Origin: a virus
DNA: 43,605 bases
Virus record (IMG/VR): IMGVR_UViG_3300025162_000081
Location: 1 to 43,605 of that record
Direction: 5' to 3' (one strand)
Shown here: one piece after another, positions 2,176-18,242 of the stretch
How the letters are laid out: each line of letters starts with the position of its first letter
How positions within the stretch are numbered: position 1 is the first letter of the stretch
Translations under genes and position numbers: made by a program
The notes under the pieces: generated by a model
Seen by the model: only the letters and a program-made list of their open reading frames with translations
Database searches by the model: none
Told to the model about the DNA's origin: nothing

Positions 2176-3754
2176 AAATTCGGAAAACTTCTTTTATAAC
2201 CTCTTCTGGATCAGGTAGGTAATCATAAAGTGTTTTTCCTTGTGGAATCATATCAATTGTATCTGTTTTAAATTCTGTGTGTCTTATTTCAAGATCATCA
2301 AGAAGTAATTTTTTATATAATGCTTTTGTTTTATATGATTGTGTACCATTTCTAAAAGGTAAAATGTGATCTTCATGTTTACATGTTGGCATAACAACAA
2401 TCCAATTATCAAATGCGCCTGCAATGTGCAATGGTGATGAATCATTTGTTACCAATACTTTAGATAATGAAATTAATGCCATTAGTTCACCTAATGATGT
2501 AATATCTCTAAAATCATATCCATTTGCTGGACATTTTACTGGTAAATATCCTTGTTTGTCATCAATTGTTTTTCCAACAATTCCAACACATAATTTTTCA
2601 GATAGTCCATCAATAACTTTTTGCCACCAATCAACTGGGAATGTTTTACTTGGCCACCATTTTCCAGGATGAATTAAAACCAATTTCTTATCGTGTGGTT
2701 TATCTTTCAACATATCAATAACTGTAGCAACATCGTCAACATCAAGTTTTAATTTAATAGTTTTGTCTTTATTTGGAATAGTTCTTTTAATCATACTCAT
2801 TGTTGCAAAATCTGTTGGATGAAAAAGTACGTGAGATAATTTGTGCTCAGCTTGTTCATCATCAGGGCAAGTATATAAAGTAAGAACTGCATCTTGCATA
2901 CCTTTCCATTGGTCATAATCAAAAACTGGCATATCTAAATGCTCAAATAATCTAGTGAAGTGAGATACAACAAATATATTTGCATCTGGATATACTTTTT
3001 CTGTATACCTAATTGCTGGCTCAGCACATAATTGATCACCCATACCAGCAGTCACTGAAATAAGAATGTTTCTAGTGTATTTATATTCTGGACCATCATT
3101 TTTCCATTGTTCAATATCTTTTTGTAGTACACCCAATAAAATTTCTTTTGGTGCACCAGCATAATGTACTATATATGAATCAAGTCTGGATATACCAATA
3201 AATTTATCAAGTAAGTCCATTCTATTGTATCTATAATCAAGATCAAACATTGATACATCATCATTAAGAATTCTTAAATTAATATATGGTTGATCTGTTT
3301 CAACAAAATTAATACCTTTTGGCATTTTGAATATTTGTTTATGCATTCTTGAAATAACCATTACTCCTGAATTGTAGAATTTGCCTTTCCATTTTTTCAA
3401 TGGTTCACCATAATAAGACGAAGCCTGTTCAAGATATTCAAAACGTGGAGCATAAGCACCTTCATTAAACATACCTAATTTGTTTTCTGGTACAACTTCA
3501 AAAAGATTTGGTGTATCTTCTCTAACAATAAGATCAATATCTAAATAAATTATTCTTTTATACTTGTTTAAGAGTTCGTGTATATGAAATTTGTTCCATT
3601 TTTGAGTGATGTAATTAGGATCTGTTTCTGTAATATTAATAAAATCTGCGCCTATTCTTTTTGCATATTTTTTAATTGAAGGTAATGTGTACAGGCTTAG
3701 ATTTTCATGAAAATCCCCTATTGAGATAGTTAAAACTAAATTTTCTTTATTCAT
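2159..3754 (-). CDS. two-domain glycosyltransferase: N-terminal DxD GT (GT8-like, 'YLDIDLIV') fused to C-terminal GT9 heptosyltransferase-like domain
   Basis: C-terminal ...KLVLIHPGKWWPSKTFPVDWWQKVIDGL...VLVTNDSSPLHIAGAFDNWIVVM resembles the ADP-heptose:LPS heptosyltransferase C-terminus (GNDSGPMHLAAALG..). 531 aa. Confidence 0.55.
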   Translation of the reverse strand: MNKENLVLTISIGDFHENLSLYTLPSIKKYAKRIGADFINITETDPNYITQKWNKFHIHELLNKYKRIIYLDIDLIVREDTPNLFEVVPENKLGMFNEGAYAPRFEYLEQASSYYGEPLKKWKGKFYNSGVMVISRMHKQIFKMPKGINFVETDQPYINLRILNDDVSMFDLDYRYNRMDLLDKFIGISRLDSYIVHYAGAPKEILLGVLQKDIEQWKNDGPEYKYTRNILISVTAGMGDQLCAEPAIRYTEKVYPDANIFVVSHFTRLFEHLDMPVFDYDQWKGMQDAVLTLYTCPDDEQAEHKLSHVLFHPTDFATMSMIKRTIPNKDKTIKLKLDVDDVATVIDMLKDKPHDKKLVLIHPGKWWPSKTFPVDWWQKVIDGLSEKLCVGIVGKTIDDKQGYLPVKCPANGYDFRDITSLGELMALISLSKVLVTNDSSPLHIAGAFDNWIVVMPTCKHEDHILPFRNGTQSYKTKALYKKLLLDDLEIRHTEFKTDTIDMIPQGKTLYDYLPDPEEVIKEVFRIYEEEK

Positions 3755-5776: not shown

Positions 5777-5845
5777 TTATAAAAATTTTAGTTTTAATAT
5801 ATATAAAAAATAGAGTGCATATTTTTTTATTTCAGATATTGTTCT

Positions 5846-5853
5846 TATATTTG
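5846..5853 (+). promoter_or_regulatory. Bacteroidota-type -7 promoter box TATATTTG immediately upstream of the tRNA
   Basis: TAnnTTTG match ends 5 nt before the tRNA 5' end at 5858. Same extended box recurs upstream of many ORFs in the window. Confidence 0.35.
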
Positions 5854-5857
5854 TTGT

Positions 5858-6052
5858 GCCGATGTAGCTCAGTTGGAATAAGAGCGCCACCTTCGAAGGT
5901 GGAACATTGAAGTAGATGAATATCAGTTGCAAATGATATAAAATTTATGAATATGTAGAGGTTGAGATCGAAAGTTTGTGTAAGATGCATATAAGCAAAC
6001 ATATAGGTTAATACTGAAGGGTCACAGGTTCGAGTCCTGTCATTGGAGCAAT
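5858..6052 (+). tRNA. interrupted tRNA gene: 5' part (acceptor, D-arm, anticodon arm; about 5858..5905) and 3' part (T-arm, acceptor; about 6019..6052) separated by a ~113-nt insertion. Anticodon loop is TTCGAA, so Arg(UCG) or Ser(CGA); identity uncertain.
   Basis: 5' part: GCCGATG-TA-GCTC-AGTTGGAATAA-GAGC-G-CCACC-TTCGAA-GGTGG. 3' part: ACAGG-TTCGAGT-CCTGT (canonical T-arm) then CATTGGA-G, which pairs with the 5' acceptor GCCGATG at 6 of 7 positions (1-72 G.A). The anticodon loop is only 6 nt between two perfect 5-bp stems. The intervening 113 nt has no tRNA-like fold I can see. Confidence 0.5.
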
Positions 6053-6665
6053 TTTAAGTTCTTTGAAAATATTAAAATGTTGTGAATTATAACCAGTAGA
6101 TAAGGGCGCAATCGGACTCTTTAAACATCGTGGGAATGCGTCTCTCCCAATGAGGCTGGAGTAATTCACAGTAAATGGGCTAAACATTGAGCCTTTGTGA
6201 AAAAATTGTGTAGTGAAAACGGAGGGGATGGCAATCCCACAAGATAGGAGTATAAATTTGTCCCTGCTCAGGTCCGCAAGACAATTCTTTGAGTAGAATC
6301 GGCAGAAAACCGAGAACCATGCGCCGTGCCTATCACGCAAAAATTTCACATAAAGATGATAATCCAGTAAATGGATGTTGGATATCAAGACGTCTTGATT
6401 TGAAAAGTAAACGCACCTAACGATTCAGAAATGAACCGAGGACAAAATTCTTAGGTCACCAACGGAGAAATCCTATACGTATCGTTACCATTGAGCAAGG
6501 TAAAACGGAACAGATGCTATGTCTGAAACAAGTACAATAAAAGTACAGTGATTTGATTTATCAAATCTAGGAAAACCGTCCAGACGATACGAATGAGTGC
6601 TCAGCCAAACCCTACTTACTATGTGGGAGTTTTCCGTCAGGGTAATTTCCAATCAGGTTAGAAGA
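6053..6665. ncRNA. unclassified structured-RNA candidate: ~600-nt G+C-enriched ORF-free segment next to the tRNA
   Basis: No ORF of 60 aa or more on the + strand. The only minus-strand ORF (6008..6388) is antisense to the tRNA and has atypical composition. G+C is visibly about 40-45% against about 25% background. Many local hairpins: GGGAT-GGCA-ATCCC at about 6225, GGGCT..AGCCT at about 6176, perfect palindrome ATCAAGACGTCTTGAT at about 6384. Strand and class undetermined. Confidence 0.3.
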
Positions 6666-6691
6666 GGGTGCTAAAATTAAAAATTAAAGAA

Positions 6692-6877
6692 ATGGTAACA
6701 TTATTTTGGATAATTTGGTATATTTTGGGTATATTAGGCGCATTAATTTATAATTCGTTTATGAAATATGAGAACACATTTCTAAAATATATTTGGAATG
6801 CTATTGTAGCATGTAGTGGTGGATTTGGATTTCTTATTTCAATTCTACATTGGATAGGTGTTAAATTTATAAAATAA
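6692..6877 (+). CDS. small membrane protein (2 TM)
   Basis: ORF-track 6668..6877 starts at GTG. First ATG is at 6692 (MVTLFWIIWYILGILGALIYN...). Hydrophobic. Confidence 0.35.
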   Translation: MVTLFWIIWYILGILGALIYNSFMKYENTFLKYIWNAIVACSGGFGFLISILHWIGVKFIK

Positions 6878-7000: not shown

Positions 7001-7255
7001 ATGAAAAATAAAAAACATAGTGAAGAAACCAAACATAAGATAAGTGAAAGTAAAATTGGTCGCAAAGTATCAGAAGAAACTAAAAAGAAAATGAGTGATA
7101 CGAAACAGAACGTATCAGAAGAAACTAGAAATAAATTAAGAAAAGCGAAAAAAGGAATATCTATGAGAAAAATAAATTGTCCATATTGTAATAAAATTGG
7201 TGGTATATCACAAATGAGGCAATGGCATTTTGAAAATTGTAAAGATAAAAAATAA
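7001..7255 (+). CDS. free-standing NUMOD3-repeat protein with C-terminal Cys/His zinc finger (homing-endonuclease DNA-binding-domain-like)
   Basis: SEETKHKISESKIG / SEETKKKMSD / SEETRNKLRKAKKG NUMOD3-type repeats, then CPYCNK..HFENC. No catalytic GIY-YIG or HNH part. Confidence 0.5.
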   Translation: MKNKKHSEETKHKISESKIGRKVSEETKKKMSDTKQNVSEETRNKLRKAKKGISMRKINCPYCNKIGGISQMRQWHFENCKDKK

Positions 7256-7928
7256 TATGAATATCACATTTTTGTCGGATACACACAGCAAACATAAACA
7301 ATTGCTCAATCATCTTCCTGGAGGTGATTTAATTGTCCACGCGGGAGACTTAACCTCAGTTGGTTTCAAACATGAAATTGAAGATTTTTGTAAATGGTTT
7401 GAAAAATTAAAATATTCCAATAAAGTATTTATTGCTGGTAATCATGATCACGGATTTGAAAGAGATCATAATAGTGCATATGAAATTGTTAAAAAATATA
7501 AAATAAACTATCTTCAAGATAGTATGATTGAAATTGATGGAATTAATATATGGGGGTCACCTTGGCAACCAGAATTTTGTAATTGGGCATTCAATTTACC
7601 AAGAAACGGTTGGCAACTTGCAGAAAAATGGAACTATATACCAGAAGATACTGACATTTTAATTACTCACGGTCCACCATTTGGATGTTTAGATATTGTA
7701 AATGGTAGAAAAGAAAATATAGGATGTGAGTTATTAACTGAACGTCTTAAAATAGTTAAACCTAAAATTCATGTTTATGGACATATACATTCTGGATATG
7801 GTTATAAGTTCGATGGTAATACACATTATTTTAATGCTTCTGTATTAAATGAAAAATATGAATATACTAATAAGCCATTGACAATTGATTGGAATAAAGA
7901 AACAAATGAAATAACATTTTTAAAATGA
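7230..7928 (+). CDS. calcineurin-like metallophosphoesterase
   Basis: Motifs LSDTH, HAGDL (GD), FIAGNHD (GNHD), ITHGPP, YGHIH. Alternative ATG at 7257 avoids the overlap with 7001..7255. Confidence 0.75.
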   Translation: MKIVKIKNNMNITFLSDTHSKHKQLLNHLPGGDLIVHAGDLTSVGFKHEIEDFCKWFEKLKYSNKVFIAGNHDHGFERDHNSAYEIVKKYKINYLQDSMIEIDGINIWGSPWQPEFCNWAFNLPRNGWQLAEKWNYIPEDTDILITHGPPFGCLDIVNGRKENIGCELLTERLKIVKPKIHVYGHIHSGYGYKFDGNTHYFNASVLNEKYEYTNKPLTIDWNKETNEITFLK

Positions 7929-9430: not shown

Positions 9431-9678
9431 TAAATTTTTAGTGAATTATATGTTTGAATCTCTTCTATTGTCAATAATCTAATTATTTCATTTTCACTTA
9501 TCCACAAGGATCTAAGACCAATTGTTGAACACAAATATTGATTTGTTACATCTATATCTACTATTTTACAATAATACGACTCAATTGTTGTATAATCTTG
9601 TGGATAATAAATTAAAACATAATCATTTACAACATATAAAAGGCTGGGGTTAAAATAGTCTTCATGAATTTTTTCCAT
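9430..9678 (-). CDS. hypothetical protein
   Basis: 82-aa ORF. Confidence 0.4.
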   Translation of the reverse strand: MEKIHEDYFNPSLLYVVNDYVLIYYPQDYTTIESYYCKIVDIDVTNQYLCSTIGLRSLWISENEIIRLLTIEEIQTYNSLKI

Positions 9679-9715
9679 ATATTATATATTATTTTTTTAA
9701 TTGAAGTATTTTTCA

Positions 9716-9723
9716 TATCTTTG
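9716..9723 (+). promoter_or_regulatory. -7 promoter box TATCTTTG
   Basis: 23 nt upstream of ATG 9746. Same 'TATCTTTGT' as at 42032 and 42795. Confidence 0.35.
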
Positions 9724-9745
9724 TTCCTTATTAAATAAAAAGGCA

Positions 9746-10006
9746 ATGGACAATACAACTAAATGGTATAATTCAAATTATGATTGTTACGGTAATCCAC
9801 TAGGATATATTCAAGATGATATTCAAATAGGGGACACAGTTGAATATGCTTATGCAGATAACCATATGTCTGATGAAAGTGGTAGACCAAAAAGTAAAAG
9901 AGTAACTGTTAAAGTACAAGGTGTATGGGATGGTGAAAAGGCTTGTTTTAATGACAAAAAAAACGTTGTAGTAAGAGCTAAAGCCTGGTTAAAACTTGTT
10001 AAATAA
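9746..10006 (+). CDS. hypothetical protein
   Basis: ORF-track 9701 start is TTG. First ATG 9746 (MDNTTKWYNS..). Confidence 0.4.
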   Translation: MDNTTKWYNSNYDCYGNPLGYIQDDIQIGDTVEYAYADNHMSDESGRPKSKRVTVKVQGVWDGEKACFNDKKNVVVRAKAWLKLVK

Positions 10007-10455
10007 TGGAAAAGGAAATTAAAAGGCTTGAGGAACAGATTGCTAAATGTGATGTTAAATTATCAAATAGTTCTTTTGTTGATAAAGCACCAAAAGATAT
10101 TATTTTAAAAGAACAACAAAAAAAGAAAGACTTTACAGCACAATTAGAAATTATAAGAAAACAATTAGAAAATTCTAAATCAGTTAGTAAAGATTACTAT
10201 GACGATGAAATTTGTCAATTCACAGTTGGCACAACTGTTTCCTATTTTAAGATACCAAGAACAGAAAGAAAAAAAGAATTTCTAATTTCTAAATTAGATA
10301 GTGTAGAAAAAATAAATTGGCATATTCAATATTTACGTGAACAAAAGACTAATATTGAAATATACAGTGAAGAATGGTATAACTTTATTTATAATGAGGA
10401 AATCACATCTAATGAAATAAATGAATTATTTGAAATTTTTAGGAAATTTGTATGA
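10006..10455 (+). CDS. hypothetical coiled-coil protein
   Basis: 149 aa. ATGG/TAATG-type coupling to neighbours. Confidence 0.45.
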   Translation: MEKEIKRLEEQIAKCDVKLSNSSFVDKAPKDIILKEQQKKKDFTAQLEIIRKQLENSKSVSKDYYDDEICQFTVGTTVSYFKIPRTERKKEFLISKLDSVEKINWHIQYLREQKTNIEIYSEEWYNFIYNEEITSNEINELFEIFRKFV

Positions 10456-12677: not shown

Positions 12678-12848
12678 ATGCCTAGAAAAAAAATGCCAGA
12701 CGAAGAAAAAAAAACAAGATTAACATTAAAAATAAATGATAATCTACTTCATAAATTTGATAGCCTATTAAAATTAGATGATAAAAAAAGATCAACTAAA
12801 ATTGAAGAATTATTACAAGAATATATTAATAAAAGAAATAATGACTGA
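12678..12848 (+). CDS. ribbon-helix-helix small protein, 56 aa (candidate antitoxin or repressor)
   Basis: Own translation: MPRKKMPDEEKKTRLTLKINDNLLHKFDSLLKLDDKKRSTKIEELLQEYINKRNND. Stop TGA overlaps the ATG of the next gene (ATGACTGA). Confidence 0.5.
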   Translation: MPRKKMPDEEKKTRLTLKINDNLLHKFDSLLKLDDKKRSTKIEELLQEYINKRNND

Positions 12849-13452
12849 AGCAGAGAAAATATGTGATGAATTAAATATAGATTACTCTAAAGTTTTGAAC
12901 ATCTACATGTATGGTTCGAAAATTTACGGTACTAATGATGAGTTTTCTGATAGTGATTATATCATTGTTTTTAAATCGTCGTTGCTTCCAAGCGGCGCAT
13001 TTAGAGATAATGCTATTTCATCTGTGGATTATAGCACGCAAGCCGTTTGTTATTCAAGATCAGGCTTCATTGATGCAATAAACAACTACGAAATTGGTGC
13101 TTTAGAATGTATTTTCTTACCAGAAGATAAGATAGTTCAGAAGAAAATGAACTTTGGTATTACAAAATACAACGACAAAGAATTATCAAAAAAAATTATT
13201 CAAAAGGCATCTGCAAGTTGGCACTTTGCAACTTTAGCACACAAAGATGATAATATGGAATCTTGTGCTAAGAATGTTTTTCATGCTTTGAGAATTTTAG
13301 ATTTTGGTATTCAAGTTAAAAGAAACAAAACAATTGTCGATTATTCAAGTATGAATAAAATACAGGCTGAAATAATGAACAACTTTAATTATTTTAATCC
13401 ATATGATTATTATGATATGTTTATAAATTTAAGTGAGGAAATTAAGAAATGA
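12841..13452 (+). CDS. minimal nucleotidyltransferase (Pol-beta superfamily) with helical C-terminal domain
   Basis: hG[GS]x9-13DxD motif: YMYGSKIYGTNDEFSDSDYIIVF. I prefer the 12841 start (MTEAEK..), coupled to the RHH stop, over the track's 12778 start, which would overlap the RHH ORF. Confidence 0.55.
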   Translation: MTEAEKICDELNIDYSKVLNIYMYGSKIYGTNDEFSDSDYIIVFKSSLLPSGAFRDNAISSVDYSTQAVCYSRSGFIDAINNYEIGALECIFLPEDKIVQKKMNFGITKYNDKELSKKIIQKASASWHFATLAHKDDNMESCAKNVFHALRILDFGIQVKRNKTIVDYSSMNKIQAEIMNNFNYFNPYDYYDMFINLSEEIKK

Positions 13453-16078: not shown

Positions 16079-16358
16079 AATTATGAAATATTTAACTTTA
16101 GAACATTTAGGTACATTACCTACACCAAGATTACTTACTTACTATAAAATAGTTAGAAGGAAAATTAGAAGGCATCAGAATTCATTATATTGTGAGTGTT
16201 GTGGCACACCTGTTTATCAATTATATGGTAAATTAAATACAAAAGAAGAAAATGAAAAATTGAAACTAGAATTTGAAACTGATCTTCATGATAGTGAAAA
16301 CTATCTTGAATCAATAAAAACATTATTAAACACAAGAGAACACGTAAAACGAAAATGA
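16062..16358 (+). CDS. hypothetical protein (CxxC pair)
   Basis: 98 aa. CECCGTP motif. Confidence 0.4.
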   Translation: MKIYIKIMKYLTLEHLGTLPTPRLLTYYKIVRRKIRRHQNSLYCECCGTPVYQLYGKLNTKEENEKLKLEFETDLHDSENYLESIKTLLNTREHVKRK

Positions 16359-17029
16359 AACATTACGATAGTTTTGAGAATATTAAGTACGACCAACTTT
16401 TGTTGGGTGAAGAAATCTGGGCATCAAATAAAATTGATGGTCAGAATTTTTGTGCTAAATATTCACCGAGACAAAAAGAATTTACTATGTTTGGATCTAA
16501 AAATCAAAATGTAGATGAAACAAGTGAGCAATTTGGTAAAGCAGTTTTGTATTTCAAACAAAATATGGCTGATACTCTAAAACAAATCATCATAAACAAT
16601 TCAAAAAAAGGTGGAGTATTTACTGGCGTTGAAGAAATTACAGTATTTTGTGAGTGGTACGGTGAGAACACTTTTAGTGGATTTCATGTGCCTGGCGAAG
16701 AATTAAAATTATGTCTAATAGATGTGTTCTTGAAAAAGAAAGGCTACATTGAACCAAAAATATTCTATAAACTCTTTGATGGCTACAGTAATATTGAAGT
16801 ACCAGAACTCATATATAGTGGCAAACTAACAAAGGATTTCATCAATTCTATTGTGAATAATGATTGGACTAAGCCTGGTTGTTTATATCCAACTGTTAAA
16901 GAAGGTGTAGTTTGTAAACGATCAACTTTAATGAAAGGTCAAAGAATGCCAAAGGCAAAAATAAAAACTGGATGGTGGTTAAATAAATTGACAGAATTAT
17001 ATCCTGATAGATGGAAAGAATTAGAATGA
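16355..17029 (+). CDS. Rnl2-family RNA ligase, nucleotidyltransferase domain only
   Basis: N-terminus aligns with T4 RNA ligase 2 as I recall it: HYDSFENIKYDQL...IWASNKIDGQNFC vs KYSSLENHYNSKF...EWVAREKIHGTNFS (motif I KxxG lysine). Later EEITVFCEWYGE and EGVVCKR (motifs IV/V). 224 aa, so it lacks the Rnl2 C-terminal domain. Confidence 0.65.
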   Translation: MKHYDSFENIKYDQLLLGEEIWASNKIDGQNFCAKYSPRQKEFTMFGSKNQNVDETSEQFGKAVLYFKQNMADTLKQIIINNSKKGGVFTGVEEITVFCEWYGENTFSGFHVPGEELKLCLIDVFLKKKGYIEPKIFYKLFDGYSNIEVPELIYSGKLTKDFINSIVNNDWTKPGCLYPTVKEGVVCKRSTLMKGQRMPKAKIKTGWWLNKLTELYPDRWKELE

Positions 17030-18242
17030 ACTACTAAGTAGTTTCCTTACAAAGATTATACTTTATAAGAACTTTAGATAAATCTAAAGGCTCGTTCATA
17101 GAAGCAAAGTGATTTCCGAACCACCTATTCAATATATTTATGGCTGAATTTAAATCACGGTCTATAATTATGGTGTCTGATAACTGAACTTCCCTATTAC
17201 CAAGACTTATTTTATCTTTAAATAGTTTTCCAGTTAGACAGTTAATTTGTGTTGTCCATTTTTCATCAATTTTCACCAAGTTGGTATTTTTTGCTTGACA
17301 CTTATATGTAAGGAATTGTAGAAACATATTGATATTAGATTGACTAAATGACTTTCTAATACCTTTTTTATTCTCATTCACTCCTTCTGTTGACATTAGC
17401 CTCTTAACTGTTAGATCACCAACTACAATTGTATTGTAGTTCATATTCGATAACTTTTTACTCTGAATATGAAGAGTTTGTTTTATTTGTTCGTTCTTTT
17501 TATGATAACATTTATTTAATGTTTTTTTCAATAATAAGTTTCTATTTGATCCTTTTGTTGTTTTACTCCTTTTGTTTTGTATTTTTGCTATTTGTTTCTG
17601 ATAATAATCATTAATTTTTTTAGATTTATTTTTTAATACAATCATACCACCTTTATTATCTATTCCTGTTCCTAATTTACTTAACCCCAAATCAATAGCA
17701 AGAACTTTAGTTTTAACATTAACATCATTAAAATATTCTATTTTATCGTCAATCACCAAATCACACAACCATTTATGTCTAATAAATTTAATTCTTATTT
17801 CTTTTATTTTTAAATCTTTAATATTTAAATTTGATTTATATTCAAATGGAATTTGATTTAGAAAGAACAATCCTTTTTTTATCATCCATCCTGATTGATT
17901 AAAAGAAATAGTATGAAAATAATTATTTTCTATTTTTCTTGGTGGTTTAGCATTTTTATCTTTTTTTATCAAATTAAAAAATGACCTATAAGATCCATAT
18001 AATTCTGTTGCTATTGTTTGAATTGCCTTTGAATTTAATTTCTTCCAATCTGGATATTCTTCTTTTAATAATGGTAATAAATTATTTAACTTGAATTTAT
18101 CTAAAATTATTTTATCTGTTTCATATTTATCTTGTTGTATATCAAGCAATTTATTCCATATATCTTTACGAATATCAGATAATTCTTGTAATTCAAGAAT
18201 TTGTTCTTTTGATGGAAATAATCTTATTTGATACGTCTTCAT
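17030..18242 (-). mobile_element. IS200/IS605-family tnpB-only (IS1341-like) element; ends not determined
   Basis: TnpB ORF with no adjacent tnpA. Its stop is only 5 nt from the convergent RNA-ligase stop, so any right-end/omega-RNA scaffold must overlap 3' sequence there. Confidence 0.3.
17034..18242 (-). CDS. tnpB: TnpB (IS605 OrfB) RuvC-like RNA-guided-nuclease family protein
   Basis: N-terminus MKTYQIRLFPSKEQ. RuvC-I VLAIDLGLSKLGTG. C-terminal CLTGK...IIDRDLNSAINIL (RuvC-III DRDxNAAxNI). 402 aa. Confidence 0.8.
   Translation of the reverse strand: MKTYQIRLFPSKEQILELQELSDIRKDIWNKLLDIQQDKYETDKIILDKFKLNNLLPLLKEEYPDWKKLNSKAIQTIATELYGSYRSFFNLIKKDKNAKPPRKIENNYFHTISFNQSGWMIKKGLFFLNQIPFEYKSNLNIKDLKIKEIRIKFIRHKWLCDLVIDDKIEYFNDVNVKTKVLAIDLGLSKLGTGIDNKGGMIVLKNKSKKINDYYQKQIAKIQNKRSKTTKGSNRNLLLKKTLNKCYHKKNEQIKQTLHIQSKKLSNMNYNTIVVGDLTVKRLMSTEGVNENKKGIRKSFSQSNINMFLQFLTYKCQAKNTNLVKIDEKWTTQINCLTGKLFKDKISLGNREVQLSDTIIIDRDLNSAINILNRWFGNHFASMNEPLDLSKVLIKYNLCKETT

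What the first reader, a model, noticed from the sequence alone, without database searches (positions are those of the whole stretch)
5858..6052. tRNA gene split by a ~113-nt insertion between the anticodon arm and the T-arm; 6-nt anticodon loop
The 5' part (acceptor, D-arm, anticodon arm) and the 3' part (perfect ACAGG-TTCGAGT-CCTGT T-arm plus acceptor strand complementary to the 5' end at 6 of 7 positions) clearly belong to one tRNA. They are separated by 113 nt with no obvious tRNA structure. The insertion is too short for a group I or II intron and not at the canonical 37/38 intron site. The anticodon loop between two perfect 5-bp stems has only 6 nt (TTCGAA). Options are a non-canonical intron, a disrupted pseudogene, or an unusual tRNA-derived RNA. 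A -7 promoter box ends 5 nt upstream, suggesting it is transcribed.
Basis: seen in the sequence. Interest (0 to 1): 0.6.

Follow-up and report, generated by a model that had tools for sequence, protein, structure and literature searches.

The report
Phage tRNA-like RNA without an anticodon
What looked like a tRNA gene split by an intron is a conserved, threonine-tRNA-derived RNA in an uncultured phage that keeps the tRNA shape but has no anticodon, carries two extra hairpins, and lies directly upstream of a widespread large structured phage RNA that is not in Rfam.

Summary
Window 5858-6047 holds an acceptor stem, D arm, a hairpin with a 6-nt loop, a 113-nt insert and a canonical T arm.

It is not an intron-split tRNA:
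- With the insert removed in silico, ARAGORN finds only a 2-nt "anticodon".
- The loop is 4-6 nt long and differs in the three homologous genomes.
- With its intron option, ARAGORN assigns a different isotype to each homologue.
- Rfam finds no intron, tmRNA or other family.

The body descends from tRNA-Thr(CGU): U36 is lost and the 1:72 pair is broken.

The fold is maintained. 97.6% of the cells in 42 proposed pairs are standard pairs. Four pairs changed on both sides and stayed paired. The insert forms two hairpins.

The element lies 125 nt upstream of a ~500-nt RNA (6178-6675). This RNA belongs to a large family found in phage tRNA/tmRNA islands, including Cellulophaga phage phi14:2, and it is absent from Rfam 15.

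Best reading: a non-decoding tRNA-like module that host tRNA-processing enzymes probably recognise. They would release a stable RNA and set the 5' end of the downstream RNA. Phage T4 species 1 RNA (rnaC) is the closest known analogue. The function itself is inferred, not shown.

The parts
5846..5853 (+). TATATTTG, a Bacteroidota-type -7 promoter box (TAnnTTTG); putative start of the transcription unit
   Evidence: Invariant in window, L046 and L047. The wider motif TTCTTATATTTG (up to 2 mismatches) occurs 59 times against 29 expected. In L047 six extra nt lie between the box and the element, so at least there a 5' leader must be removed. Promoter activity was not tested.
5858..6048 (+). tRNA-like element as a whole: tRNA-Thr-derived, no anticodon, giant variable region, discriminator at 6048
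5858..5864 (+). Acceptor stem, 5' strand (GCCGATG); U at -1 in all three genomes
   Evidence: Pairs with 6041-6047. In L047, G4.U69 becomes G-C and G1xA72 becomes G.U.
5867..5885 (+). D arm (GCTC / AGTTGGAATAA / GAGC) with A14 and G18G19
   Evidence: Four invariant pairs. Loop length varies by 1-2 nt.
5887..5902 (+). Former anticodon arm: CCACC-TTCGAA-GGTGG. Loop is 6 nt, or a UCGA tetraloop on a 6-bp stem. No anticodon.
   Evidence: Pair 34:41 is C-G in window and L046 and U-A in L047. Loop is UUCGAA / CACGAA / UCGA. It equals the tRNA-Thr(CGU) loop TTCGTAA minus U36.
5904..5956 (+). Insert hairpin H1: three stacked helices of 4, 6 and 6 bp, loop GUUGCAAA
   Evidence: 16 pairs, all cells paired. 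Five pairs change on one side, switching between G.U and A-U. This only works on the + strand.
5974..6000 (+). Insert hairpin H2: GUUUG/CAAAC stem. The loop carries the invariant palindrome AUGCAU.
   Evidence: Two pairs change on both sides and stay paired: G-C to C-G and U-A to A-U.
6024..6040 (+). T arm ACAGG-TTCGAGT-CCTGT, with G53-C61 and T54 T55 C56 R57 A58
   Evidence: C-G becomes U-A in L047. It is the only such T arm in the window.
6041..6047 (+). Acceptor stem, 3' strand (CATTGGA). Followed by G-CAA in the window, A-CCA in L046 and A-CTA in L047.
6056..6066 (+). AAGTTCTTTGA, a motif that follows tRNAs and tRNA-like elements in related phage loci; role unknown
   Evidence: Seen after tRNA-like elements in L024, L031, L053, L088 and L098. 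Not enriched within the window.
6082..6170 (+). Extra 5' domain of the downstream RNA, closed by GTGAATTA/TAATTCAC. It holds a 39-nt stretch that is invariant in three genomes.
   Evidence: In L053 the closing helix keeps pairing through two G.U changes.
6178..6675 (+). Large structured RNA, member of a family associated with phage tRNA/tmRNA islands
   Evidence: A profile of 21 IMG/VR members matches end to end, E 4e-6. A covariance model of the core matches 6477-6610, 28.4 bits, E 0.023. No ORF; 40-46% G+C against about 25% in the flanks; A-rich on the + strand. No gene is called here on any copy.

Best explanation
Window 5858-6048 encodes a non-decoding tRNA-like RNA. It descends from a tRNA-Thr(CGU) gene. 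That gene lost U36 of the anticodon and the G1-C72 pair, and gained a two-hairpin expansion of 113 nt at the variable-arm position.

The acceptor/T-arm minihelix and the D-loop/T-loop elbow remain intact. These are the parts that RNase P, RNase Z and the CCA-adding enzyme read.

Proposed mechanism:
1. The unit is transcribed from the TAnnTTTG promoter together with the large structured RNA that follows.
2. Host tRNA-processing enzymes cut at G1 and after the discriminator.
3. This releases a stable ~190-nt tRNA-like RNA and, in the same step, creates the 5' end of the downstream RNA (tRNA punctuation).

Shown here: the anatomy, conservation, compensatory changes, tRNA-Thr ancestry, the absence of any anticodon, and the physical linkage to a conserved RNA family.

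Inferred: transcription, processing, stability, and any role of the two insert hairpins.
For: - All eight helices hold in three genomes. Of the cells in 42 pairs, 97.6% are standard pairs. Four pairs changed on both sides and seven on one side. With the 3' partners slid by 1-3 columns, only 24-44% of cells pair.
- The tertiary core is intact: U8, A14, G18G19, G15:C48, G26, G53-C61 and T54-A58.
- U(-1)/G(+1) is present in all three genomes. CCA is encoded only in L046.
- No anticodon is possible. ARAGORN's intron-mode isotype calls disagree between homologues.
- The 5' 21-mer is identical to bacterial tRNA-Thr genes. Restoring one U gives tRNA-Thr(CGU).
- No intrinsic terminator is predicted on the + strand between the element and the large RNA.
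- The large RNA belongs to a family that sits beside tRNAs or tmRNAs on the same strand: median distance 408 nt, same strand as the nearest tRNA/tmRNA in 83 of 86 motif occurrences. In L114 the RNA ends 0-3 nt before a tmRNA 5' end.
- Related phage tRNA arrays hold 171 distinct acceptor-plus-T-arm elements that ARAGORN does not call, so this design is common.
- T4 rnaC has the same layout: an acceptor-like stem, two long hairpins and a T arm.
Against: - There are only three homologues, at 86-88% identity. Overall conservation is no higher than in neighbouring coding sequence.
- In the shuffle control, 5 of 500 shuffles reached the observed values. By the tool's own caveat, related sequences can produce such a result without any structure.
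- The more distant relative L053 has a different, degenerate tRNA-like element at this position. Cellulophaga phage phi14:2 has none. So this element is not required by the large RNA.
- There are no expression data.
- The discriminator and the 1:72 pair vary.
- A sigma-70-like match (9 of 12) lies between the two RNAs, so they could be transcribed separately.
Confidence: 0.55

Rival explanations
1. It is an intron-containing tRNA gene. The 113 nt are spliced out, by a non-canonical or BHB-type mechanism, and a working tRNA results.
For: With introns allowed, ARAGORN builds a cloverleaf spanning the two halves. The two halves clearly belong to one tRNA body.
Against: - The exact excision product has a 6-nt loop and a 2-nt anticodon.
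- The loop is 4-6 nt and not conserved.
- Intron-mode calls disagree: Ile with a 105-nt intron, Leu with 101 nt, Phe with 103 nt.
- No group I or group II model matches at E<=10.
- 113 nt is too short for a self-splicing intron, and the site is not 37/38.
- The flanks of the insert show no complementarity that could form a bulge-helix-bulge motif (inspection).
- The insert itself is under pairing constraint.
Confidence: 0.04
2. It is a dead tRNA-Thr pseudogene that picked up an insertion. It only looks conserved because the three genomes are close relatives.
For: - Both main ThrRS identity sets are damaged: U36 is lost and G1-C72 is broken.
- Its nt identity of 86-88% is similar to the flanking genes at 74-92%.
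- Distant relatives lack it.
Against: - Substitutions in stems almost always keep pairing. Four pairs changed on both sides, and only 3 of 126 cells are unpaired.
- The tertiary-core nucleotides are all intact.
- The promoter box and U(-1) are conserved.
- Similar anticodon-less elements are abundant and conserved in phage tRNA arrays.
Confidence: 0.13
3. It is a tRNA mimic whose main job is to bind a protein or enzyme, with processing as a side effect. Examples would be a sponge for a tRNA-targeting defence toxin, a Y-RNA-like partner, or a substrate of the phage's RNA-repair or tRNA-binding proteins.
For: - The intact elbow and minihelix are what tRNA-binding proteins read.
- Nearby genes include a protein with the ValRS tRNA-binding arm (10006-10455), an RNA ligase (16355-17029), a nucleotidyltransferase (12778-13452) and a metallophosphoesterase (7257-7925). 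Homologues of the metallophosphoesterase sit beside tRNA arrays in other phages.
- The Rfam YrlA model gives a weak match on the T-arm region.
Against: - The YrlA score is 16 bits against a 69-bit threshold.
- None of the six ORFs longer than 300 aa in the window (the size expected for a Ro/TROVE protein) has a TROVE domain in Pfam.
- No partner has been identified.
- The acceptor end is not conserved in sequence.
Confidence: 0.2
4. It is a miniature tmRNA. The insert would encode a tag: CAGUU|GCA AAU GAU AUA AAA UUU AUG AAU AUG UAG, which reads ANDIKFMNM*.
For: The context of the resume codon resembles E. coli tmRNA (UAGUC|GCA AAC GAC...), a comparison made from my own knowledge. Relatives of the downstream large RNA lie next to genuine tmRNAs.
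Against: - L047 has a 1-nt deletion in the frame and L046 loses the stop codon (TAG to TGG). The three peptides would be ANDIKFMNM, ASDIKFMNMWRLKLKNCG and ANDINL.
- The supposed ORF lies in the loop and 3' strand of H1, which evolves as a helix.
- ARAGORN in tmRNA mode finds nothing, and no Rfam tmRNA model matches.
- There is no G3.U70.
- D and anticodon-type arms are present, unlike in tmRNA.
Confidence: 0.02

Closest known systems
Phage T4 species 1 RNA (rnaC), with its neighbour species 2 RNA (rnaD): small stable RNAs at the end of the T4 tRNA cluster, function still unknown (PMC9697503)
   Same: - Phage-encoded and located in a tRNA/RNA-processing neighbourhood.
- rnaC has an acceptor-like stem, two long internal hairpins and a canonical T arm (CCGGG-TTCGAAT-CCCGG), with no anticodon.
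- rnaD carries the hairpin GGUUCCCUGAGUAAGGAAUU inside a UGAUG/CAUCA helix. This is the signature of the core of the window's downstream RNA.
- rnaD is adjacent to rnaC, just as the core element is adjacent to tRNA-like elements in many loci.
   Different: - No sequence homology to rnaC was shown.
- The window element keeps a full D arm and a former anticodon arm, which rnaC lacks.
- The order is reversed: tRNA-like then large RNA here, rnaD then rnaC in T4.
- The core model scores rnaD at only 13.9 bits, E 0.23 in 10 kb. It is the top hit but not significant.
- The profile of the large RNA does not hit T4.
GOLLD and ROOL RNAs: large ornate phage/prophage RNAs in tRNA arrays. GOLLD sometimes has a tRNA embedded or adjacent (PMC12286853, PMC12990946).
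   Same: A large, highly structured phage RNA of unknown function that lies next to tRNA-type elements. GOLLD env-38 was found downstream of a tRNA-Met.
   Different: Neither Rfam model matches the window or its relatives, even at permissive thresholds. The conserved motifs and helices differ. Multimer formation was not tested.
tRNA-punctuated processing and tRNA-like processing handles (mitochondrial punctuation, MALAT1 mascRNA, MHV68 tRNA-miRNA units) and engineered tRNA scaffolds
   Same: A tRNA-shaped module without a decoding role. Recognition of this module by RNase P and RNase Z defines the ends of a neighbouring RNA and stabilises the cargo.
   Different: Those are eukaryotic, organellar or artificial systems. 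Here the processing is only inferred.
Bacterial Y RNA-like YrlA (Rfam RF02553)
   Same: A tRNA-like module (T arm, D arm, acceptor-like stem) fused to other helices, associated with RNA-repair genes.
   Different: 16 bits against a 69-bit threshold. There is no Ro-binding stem, and no Ro/TROVE homologue among the six window ORFs longer than 300 aa.

Membership tests
Canonical decoding tRNA | A 7-nt anticodon loop (U33, 3-nt anticodon, R37), conserved among orthologues | tested here: not met
   The loop is UUCGAA, CACGAA or UCGA. ARAGORN reads a 2-nt anticodon after the insert is removed.
Canonical decoding tRNA | Detected by standard tools at their thresholds | tested here: not met
   Default ARAGORN finds 0 genes. 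Rfam tRNA gives 16.9 bits against 29, for the 5' part only.
Canonical decoding tRNA | Acceptor stem, D arm, T arm and the tertiary-core nucleotides | tested here: met
Intron-containing tRNA gene (bacterial group I type) | Intron in the anticodon loop with a group I catalytic core | tested here: not met
   The insert lies after the anticodon-arm stem, is 113 nt long, and matches no Rfam intron model at E<=10.
Intron-containing tRNA gene (any type) | Excision yields a functional tRNA of one consistent isotype | tested here: not met
Intron-containing tRNA gene (archaeal BHB type) | Bulge-helix-bulge motif at the two junctions | tested here: not met
   By inspection only: the sequences around 5903/5904 and 6016/6017 are not complementary. 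No dedicated BHB search was run.
tmRNA | A conserved tag reading frame that ends in a stop codon | tested here: not met
   Frameshift in L047, stop codon lost in L046.
tmRNA | tRNA-Ala-like domain with G3.U70; detected by ARAGORN or Rfam | tested here: not met
   C3-G70. ARAGORN -m finds none. Rfam finds none.
T4 rnaC-type tRNA-like stable RNA | Acceptor-like stem plus canonical T arm enclosing long hairpins, with no anticodon | tested here: met
T4 rnaC-type tRNA-like stable RNA | Sequence or profile homology to rnaC | not tested
   No rnaC model was built. Only the architecture was compared.
T4 rnaC-type tRNA-like stable RNA | Matured by host tRNA-processing enzymes into an abundant stable RNA | not testable with these tools
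   Needs RNA data or enzymology.
Large RNA family of phage tRNA/tmRNA islands (defined here, alignment A4) - applies to 6178-6675, not to the tRNA-like element | End-to-end profile match containing the motifs GGYTAAACATTGA, CATAAAGA plus hairpin, the core three-way junction, AATGAGTNCTCAGC, ACCCTACT and AGAGGGTGCTA | tested here: met
   nhmmer E 4e-6 over 6178-6675. Core covariance model E 0.023. The proposed loop-tail pairing UGAGCA/UGCUCA in the window replaces UGAGAA/UUCUCA elsewhere.
GOLLD / ROOL | Match to the Rfam covariance models | tested here: not met
   No match at E<=10 in the window, none at gathering thresholds on 11 related loci and none at E<=1 in phi14:2.
YrlA (Y RNA-like) | Rfam model at threshold; Ro-binding helix; Ro gene nearby | tested here: not met
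   16.1 bits against 69. None of the six window ORFs longer than 300 aa has a TROVE domain. Smaller ORFs were not all scanned.

The most novel reading that the evidence does not exclude
The tRNA-like element and the RNA behind it form one unit of a previously undescribed class of modular phage RNAs that live in tRNA/tmRNA islands. In this class, anticodon-less tRNA bodies act as processing and stability handles, or as docking elbows, for a conserved ornate RNA. T4's 50-year-old orphan RNAs species 1 and 2 (rnaC and rnaD) would be reduced members of the same system. The class reaches crAss-like phages of Bacteroidota, where Cellulophaga phage phi14:2 offers a cultured model.
Probability: 0.3. 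Interest if true: 0.85.

Novelty: new variant of a known kind. Interest (0 to 1): 0.6.

Why it matters
Phages carry tRNA arrays, and the non-tRNA content of these arrays has been little studied. This case shows that gene finders silently skip a whole layer of RNA there.

Three kinds of RNA are involved:
- tRNA bodies that have given up decoding but keep the parts read by RNase P, RNase Z and the CCA-adding enzyme.
- A conserved core element built on a three-way junction.
- A 200-500-nt structured RNA that is absent from Rfam.

The third RNA is present in more than 120 IMG/VR contigs and in a cultured crAss-like phage. There it is annotated as three tiny hypothetical proteins.

If the link to T4 rnaC/rnaD holds, a question open since the 1970s becomes testable by comparative analysis and in a tractable host. 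The case also adds a third example, beside GOLLD and ROOL, of large RNAs tied to phage tRNA islands.

For annotation, it is a warning that tRNA calls made in intron mode can be artefacts.

Tried and rejected
- **tmRNA reading of the insert.** Attractive at first because of the GCA AAU GAU start. Rejected when L046 and L047 broke the frame.
- **Exact-word scans of IMG/VR.** CTGCTCAGGTCCGCAAGAC and CCCAATGAGGCTGGAGTA gave only chance hits in GC-rich coding DNA. The T-arm/acceptor 31-mer gave none.
- **blastn of 5780-6700 against 50,697 phage records.** No match.
- **nhmmer and blastn against 40 loci anchored on the metallophosphoesterase.** Only generic tRNA similarity.
- **Coding reading of 5777-6700.** Stop codons of all three kinds occur in all six frames, so neither a gene nor a recoded gene is present.
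- **RCC1 neighbour as an anchor for relatives.** Swamped by repeat proteins and yielded no new locus.
- **Initiator-tRNA ancestry.** Suggested by the 1:72 mismatch and a shared T arm with a phage tRNA-fMet. Dropped because position 11:24 is Y:R, there is no GGG/CCC stem, and the 5' 21-mer is tRNA-Thr.
- **AAGTTCTTTGA as a repeated promoter of the window.** Not enriched: 6 matches against 3.1 expected.
- **Single-sequence folding.** z-scores of -1.4 and -1.9 were uninformative.
- **Membership of T4 rnaD in the core family.** Remains unproven.
Full report
**The observation**

In order along the + strand:
- Acceptor 5' strand GCCGATG.
- U8 and A9.
- D arm GCTC-AGTTGGAATAA-GAGC.
- G26.
- A perfect 5-bp hairpin, CCACC-TTCGAA-GGTGG.
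- 113 nt of insert.
- GAAGGGTC.
- T arm ACAGG-TTCGAGT-CCTGT.
- Acceptor 3' strand CATTGGA.
- G, then CAA.

Six of the seven acceptor pairs form; G1xA72 does not. The nucleotides that build the tRNA elbow are all present: U8, A14, G18G19, G15 with C48, G53-C61 and T54-T55-C56-R57-A58. A T arm of this type occurs once in the window.

Standard detectors see nothing. ARAGORN finds 0 genes in the window. Rfam gathering thresholds give 0 matches. The Rfam tRNA model gives 16.9 bits against a threshold of 29, and only for the 5' part.

**The setting**

The window is AT-rich, about 27% G+C. It looks like part of a large uncultured phage:
- A major-vault-protein homologue is about 50% identical to ORFs of 462-735-kb uncultured phage records.
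- It also carries GIY-YIG homing endonucleases, a TnpB, an RNA ligase, a nucleotidyltransferase, a NADAR protein and a protein with the ValRS tRNA-binding arm.

Identical copies of the window sequence exist on several metagenome contigs.

The element lies in an 890-nt gap, 5777-6667. The gap has these properties:
- No gene is called there on any copy.
- All six frames are full of stop codons of all three kinds.
- G+C is 40-46%, against about 25% in the flanks, with an excess of A on the + strand.

**Homologues and structure**

I used the neighbouring metallophosphoesterase as an anchor. This recovered two diverged syntenic contigs, L046 and L047.

The tRNA-like element, insert included, is present in both. 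Identity to the window is 87.8% and 85.9%.

I wrote down a structure of 42 pairs in eight helices and counted pairs on the three-way alignment:
- 97.6% of cells are standard pairs.
- Four pairs changed on both sides and stayed paired. These are one in the former anticodon stem (C-G to U-A), one in the T stem (C-G to U-A) and two in an insert hairpin (G-C to C-G, U-A to A-U).
- Seven more pairs changed on one side between G.U and A-U or G-C.
- With the 3' partners slid by 1-3 columns, only 24-44% of cells pair and none has a two-sided change.

The insert is therefore not a featureless spacer. It forms two hairpins:
- H1, 5904-5956, made of three stacked helices.
- H2, 5974-6000, whose loop carries the invariant palindrome AUGCAU.

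The one-sided G.U changes only make sense for an RNA read from the + strand.

With three sequences this is supportive rather than conclusive. Five of 500 column shuffles reached the observed values. Overall nt identity is no higher than in neighbouring genes, which range from 74% to 92%.

**Why it is not a split tRNA gene**

- The hairpin loop is never 7 nt. It is UUCGAA in the window, CACGAA in L046 and UCGA on a 5-bp stem in L047.
- ARAGORN with introns allowed does call a gene in each genome, but the calls disagree: Ile(gat) with a 105-nt intron, Leu(aag) with 101 nt and Phe(gaa) with 103 nt. The program is simply absorbing the insert.
- When I removed the insert exactly, ARAGORN reported a cloverleaf with a 2-nt anticodon.
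- No group I, group II or other intron model of Rfam matches at E<=10.
- The junctions show no complementarity that could form a bulge-helix-bulge motif (inspection only).

**Why it is not a tmRNA**

The insert contains CAGUU|GCA AAU GAU AUA AAA UUU AUG AAU AUG UAG. This recalls the resume region of E. coli tmRNA (from my own knowledge).

The frame is not conserved, however. L047 has a 1-nt deletion in it and L046 changes the stop codon to TGG. The stretch is part of H1 and evolves as a helix. ARAGORN in tmRNA mode and the Rfam tmRNA models find nothing.

**Ancestry**

The 5' 21-mer GCCGATGTAGCTCAGTTGGAA is identical to the start of bacterial tRNA-Thr genes. One example is in the Bacteroidota symbiont Karelsulcia, whose acceptor 3' strand is CATTGGC.

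tRNA-Thr(CGU) genes have the loop TTCGTAA. The window has TTCGAA, which is the same loop without U36. Putting one T back makes ARAGORN call tRNA-Thr(CGU). Position 72 has changed from C to A, or to U in L047.

So the two determinant sets that E. coli ThrRS uses are both damaged. These are the anticodon and the first acceptor pairs (established knowledge). The parts read by processing enzymes are intact. All three lineages share these lesions and the insert, so the lesions predate the split, and the fold has been kept since.

**What lies behind the element**

From 6178 to 6675 runs a conserved RNA. A more distant relative, L053, was found with an 18-mer in metagenome contigs. It aligns over the whole length and carries a second, tandem partial copy.

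The RNA's core is a hairpin, GUUCCCYUGAGAAAGGAAU, enclosed by a GUGUU/AACAC helix and followed by AAUGAGUUCUCAGC. The six loop bases UGAGAA are complementary to the UUCUCA in that tail. In the window clade both sides have changed, to UGAGCA and UGCUCA, which suggests a pseudoknot.

About 5 would be expected by chance (my estimate). In these loci:
- The 5-nt helix upstream has its exact complement downstream in 117 of 124 occurrences, including the GTATT/AATAC variants.
- 83 of the 120 loci hold a tRNA or tmRNA in the stored stretch.
- The median distance from the motif to the nearest tRNA or tmRNA is 408 nt.
- The motif is on the same strand as the nearest tRNA or tmRNA in 83 of 86 occurrences.

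A covariance model built from 47 of these sequences, without the window, gave these hits:

| Locus | Coordinates | Result |
|---|---|---|
| L031 | 6476-6572 | E 4e-11 |
| L053 | 483-584 | E 1.5e-8 |
| window | 6477-6610 | 28.4 bits, E 0.023 |

Twenty-one full-length members of 214-420 nt align with several covarying helices. RNAalifold predicts 27 pairs, 8 of them with two-sided changes. A profile of that alignment gave these matches:

| Target | E-value |
|---|---|
| window 6178-6675, end to end | 4e-6 |
| L047 | 3e-11 |
| L053 | 3e-26 |
| Cellulophaga phage phi14:2 | 8e-43 |

Phage phi14:2 is a cultured crAss-like phage of a Bacteroidota host. In its record the RNA is covered by three tiny hypothetical ORFs of about 35 aa, and a tmRNA follows 670 nt downstream.

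Rfam 15 has no family for this RNA. In L114 the RNA ends 0-3 nt before the 5' end of a tmRNA, and in L097 about 50 nt before one.

**Anticodon-less tRNA bodies are common in these arrays**

The fetched loci total 1.78 Mb. In them ARAGORN tRNAs. A simple search finds a further 171 distinct elements with a canonical T arm and a perfectly paired acceptor stem that ARAGORN does not call.

At least 68 of these share three features:
- A tRNA-Leu-type D arm, GGTGGCGGAATTGGTAGACGC.
- The acceptor AGTCAGG/CCTGACT.
- A region of 10 to more than 100 nt, with no common sequence, in place of the anticodon arm.

In intron mode, ARAGORN gives them arbitrary isotypes. They often alternate with the core element described above.

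The window element is a different subtype, with a tRNA-Thr body and the expansion at the variable arm. The design principle is the same.

**How it most likely works**

What has been kept is the acceptor/T-arm minihelix, the elbow, U(-1)/G(+1), and a discriminator without a fixed CCA. Bacterial RNase P, RNase Z and the CCA-adding enzyme need exactly these features (established knowledge).

What has been lost is what the ribosome and ThrRS need.

A Bacteroidota-type -7 box lies 4 nt upstream and is conserved. Its wider motif is twice as frequent in the window as in shuffles. In L047 six extra nt separate the box from G1, so a leader has to be removed there.

No terminator is predicted between the element and the large RNA.

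I therefore propose co-transcription followed by tRNA-type processing. This would yield a stable tRNA-like RNA and the 5' end of the large RNA. In other phages, a tmRNA or tRNA downstream would set the large RNA's 3' end in the same way.

All of this is inference. The two conserved insert hairpins point to an additional role that I cannot name. The palindromic loop of H2 could mediate dimerisation.

**Comparison with known systems**

The closest described objects are the T4 small stable RNAs. rnaC folds into an acceptor-like stem, two long hairpins and a canonical T arm. rnaD carries the family's hairpin inside a UGAUG/CAUCA helix. Both are still described as being of unknown function (PMC9697503).

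The homology is not established:
- The core model scores rnaD at 13.9 bits, E 0.23 in a 10-kb search. It is the top hit but not significant.
- The large-RNA profile does not hit T4.

GOLLD and ROOL share the habitat. They lie in phage tRNA arrays, and GOLLD sometimes has tRNAs embedded (PMC12286853, PMC12990946). Their models do not match here.

**Verdict**

The intron interpretation is not supported.

The element is a new variant of a known kind, the phage tRNA-like stable RNA. The more surprising result lies outside the given coordinates: the element is attached to a member of a widespread, apparently uncurated family of large structured RNAs found in phage tRNA/tmRNA islands.

Noticed in passing
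window 6178-6675; also L097 546-805(-), L114 6676-7004(-), L180 2792-3241 (= KC821624 2910-3359): A family of 214-500-nt structured RNAs in phage tRNA/tmRNA islands that is not in Rfam 15. Conserved motifs: GGYTAAACATTGA, CATAAAGA plus a covarying hairpin, a three-way-junction core, AATGAGTTCTCAGC, GACCCTACTCTTATA and TATAAGAAAGAGGGTGCTA. In Cellulophaga phage phi14:2 (crAss-like) it is annotated as three ~35-aa hypothetical proteins. It often lies directly upstream of a tmRNA.
   Followed up: partly
L060-L179 (IMG/VR), e.g. L071 4580-4665, L073, L116 1960-2440; window 6477-6610: Core element GUGUU-GUUCCCYUGAGAAAGGAAU-[variable hairpin]-AACAC. It is followed either by AAAUGAGUUCUCAGC or by a hairpin GAGGN-CUUCUCA-NCCUC. 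The loop UGAGAA is complementary to the downstream UUCUCA, and the window clade has UGAGCA/UGCUCA, which suggests a pseudoknot or kissing loop. The element sits right after tRNAs and tRNA-like elements.
   Followed up: partly
e.g. L024 2537-2640, L031 6575-6700 and 13815-13885, L029 1185-1335, L110 76-147, L154, L172: At least 68 distinct tRNA-Leu-derived elements. They share a nearly constant acceptor AGTCAGG/CCTGACT, a Leu-type D arm and a canonical T arm. A hypervariable region of 10 to more than 100 nt replaces the anticodon arm. ARAGORN skips them, or in intron mode gives them arbitrary isotypes.
   Followed up: partly
L106 2066-2218, L084 ~6475-6626, L121 ~1417-1569, L079 ~9620-9774, L166 ~9833-10010: Another conserved tRNA-like family of about 152 nt. 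It has an acceptor plus T arm, and an insert containing the invariant CACTCCTTAATACTAGGATCGGAG.
   Followed up: no
window 6082-6170; L053 1031-930(-): An extra 5' domain of the large RNA, closed by GTGAATTA/TAATTCAC. It holds a 39-nt stretch that is invariant in window, L046 and L047 (GCGTCTCTCCCAATGAGGCTGGAGTAATTCACAGTAAAT). It was found only in this clade and in L053, and not in IMG/VR.
   Followed up: partly
window 6204-6340; L047 1035-1150 and ~1700-1885: The large RNA is modular. The 137 nt at 6204-6340, with GGCA and GCAA loops, are absent in L046 and replaced in L047. L047 also has a 115-nt long-stem hairpin inserted between the tRNA-like element and the large RNA, and a ~190-nt insertion before ACCCTACT.
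   Followed up: partly
L053 1600-1 (minus strand): At least 1.6 kb without a convincing ORF, running off the contig end. It holds tandem copies of large-RNA modules, a twice-repeated hairpin CAGACTGGTTATCCATTARGTTGGATATGAAAGTAYATTCGCCAGTC, and a degenerate tRNA-like element (AATCAGG ... GTAGG-TTAT-CCTAC-CCG-CCTGATT).
   Followed up: partly
window 6056-6066; L180 ~3430-3470: The motif AAGTTCTTTGA follows tRNAs and tRNA-like elements in several phages. Its reverse complement, AAAGAACTT, is repeated three times in tandem downstream of the large RNA in phage phi14:2. It is not enriched inside the window. Its role is unknown.
   Followed up: partly
window 7001-7255: An 84-aa ORF made only of NUMOD3 repeats. 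It overlaps the start of the metallophosphoesterase gene and is absent in L046. It is probably the remnant of a homing endonuclease next to the RNA locus.
   Followed up: partly
window 7257-7925 and loci L015, L029, L034, L042: Homologues of the calcineurin-type metallophosphoesterase sit directly beside tRNA arrays in other phages; L015 has 27 tRNAs in 9 kb. The window also has an RNA ligase (16355-17029), a nucleotidyltransferase (12778-13452) and a stand-alone ValRS tRNA-binding-arm protein (10006-10455). Together these suggest an RNA-repair or tRNA-handling island.
   Followed up: partly
window 34998-37409: An 803-aa homologue of the eukaryotic major vault protein (shoulder and vault-repeat domains). 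It is about 50% identical to ORFs of 462-735-kb uncultured phage records (LR756500, LR756501, LR756503).
   Followed up: no
window 17034-18242: A TnpB/IS605 OrfB-type ORF of 402 aa on the minus strand. Its guide RNA region was not examined.
   Followed up: no
L181 ~1420-1230 (minus strand), Candidatus Paceibacterota MAG JBAYME010000039: A tRNA-Thr gene whose D loop is interrupted by about 115 nt. The interruption itself contains a complete tRNA-like sequence (GCCACCATAGTTCAATGGTAGAAC...GGTTCAAATCCGATTGGTGGCT), so the arrangement is nested.
   Followed up: no
L059 1549-1672 (T4 rnaD): T4 species 2 RNA carries the family's hairpin, GGUUCCCUGAGUAAGGAAUU, within a UGAUG/CAUCA helix. It is the top hit of the core model in the T4 tRNA region, but at only 13.9 bits (E 0.23).
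   Followed up: partly
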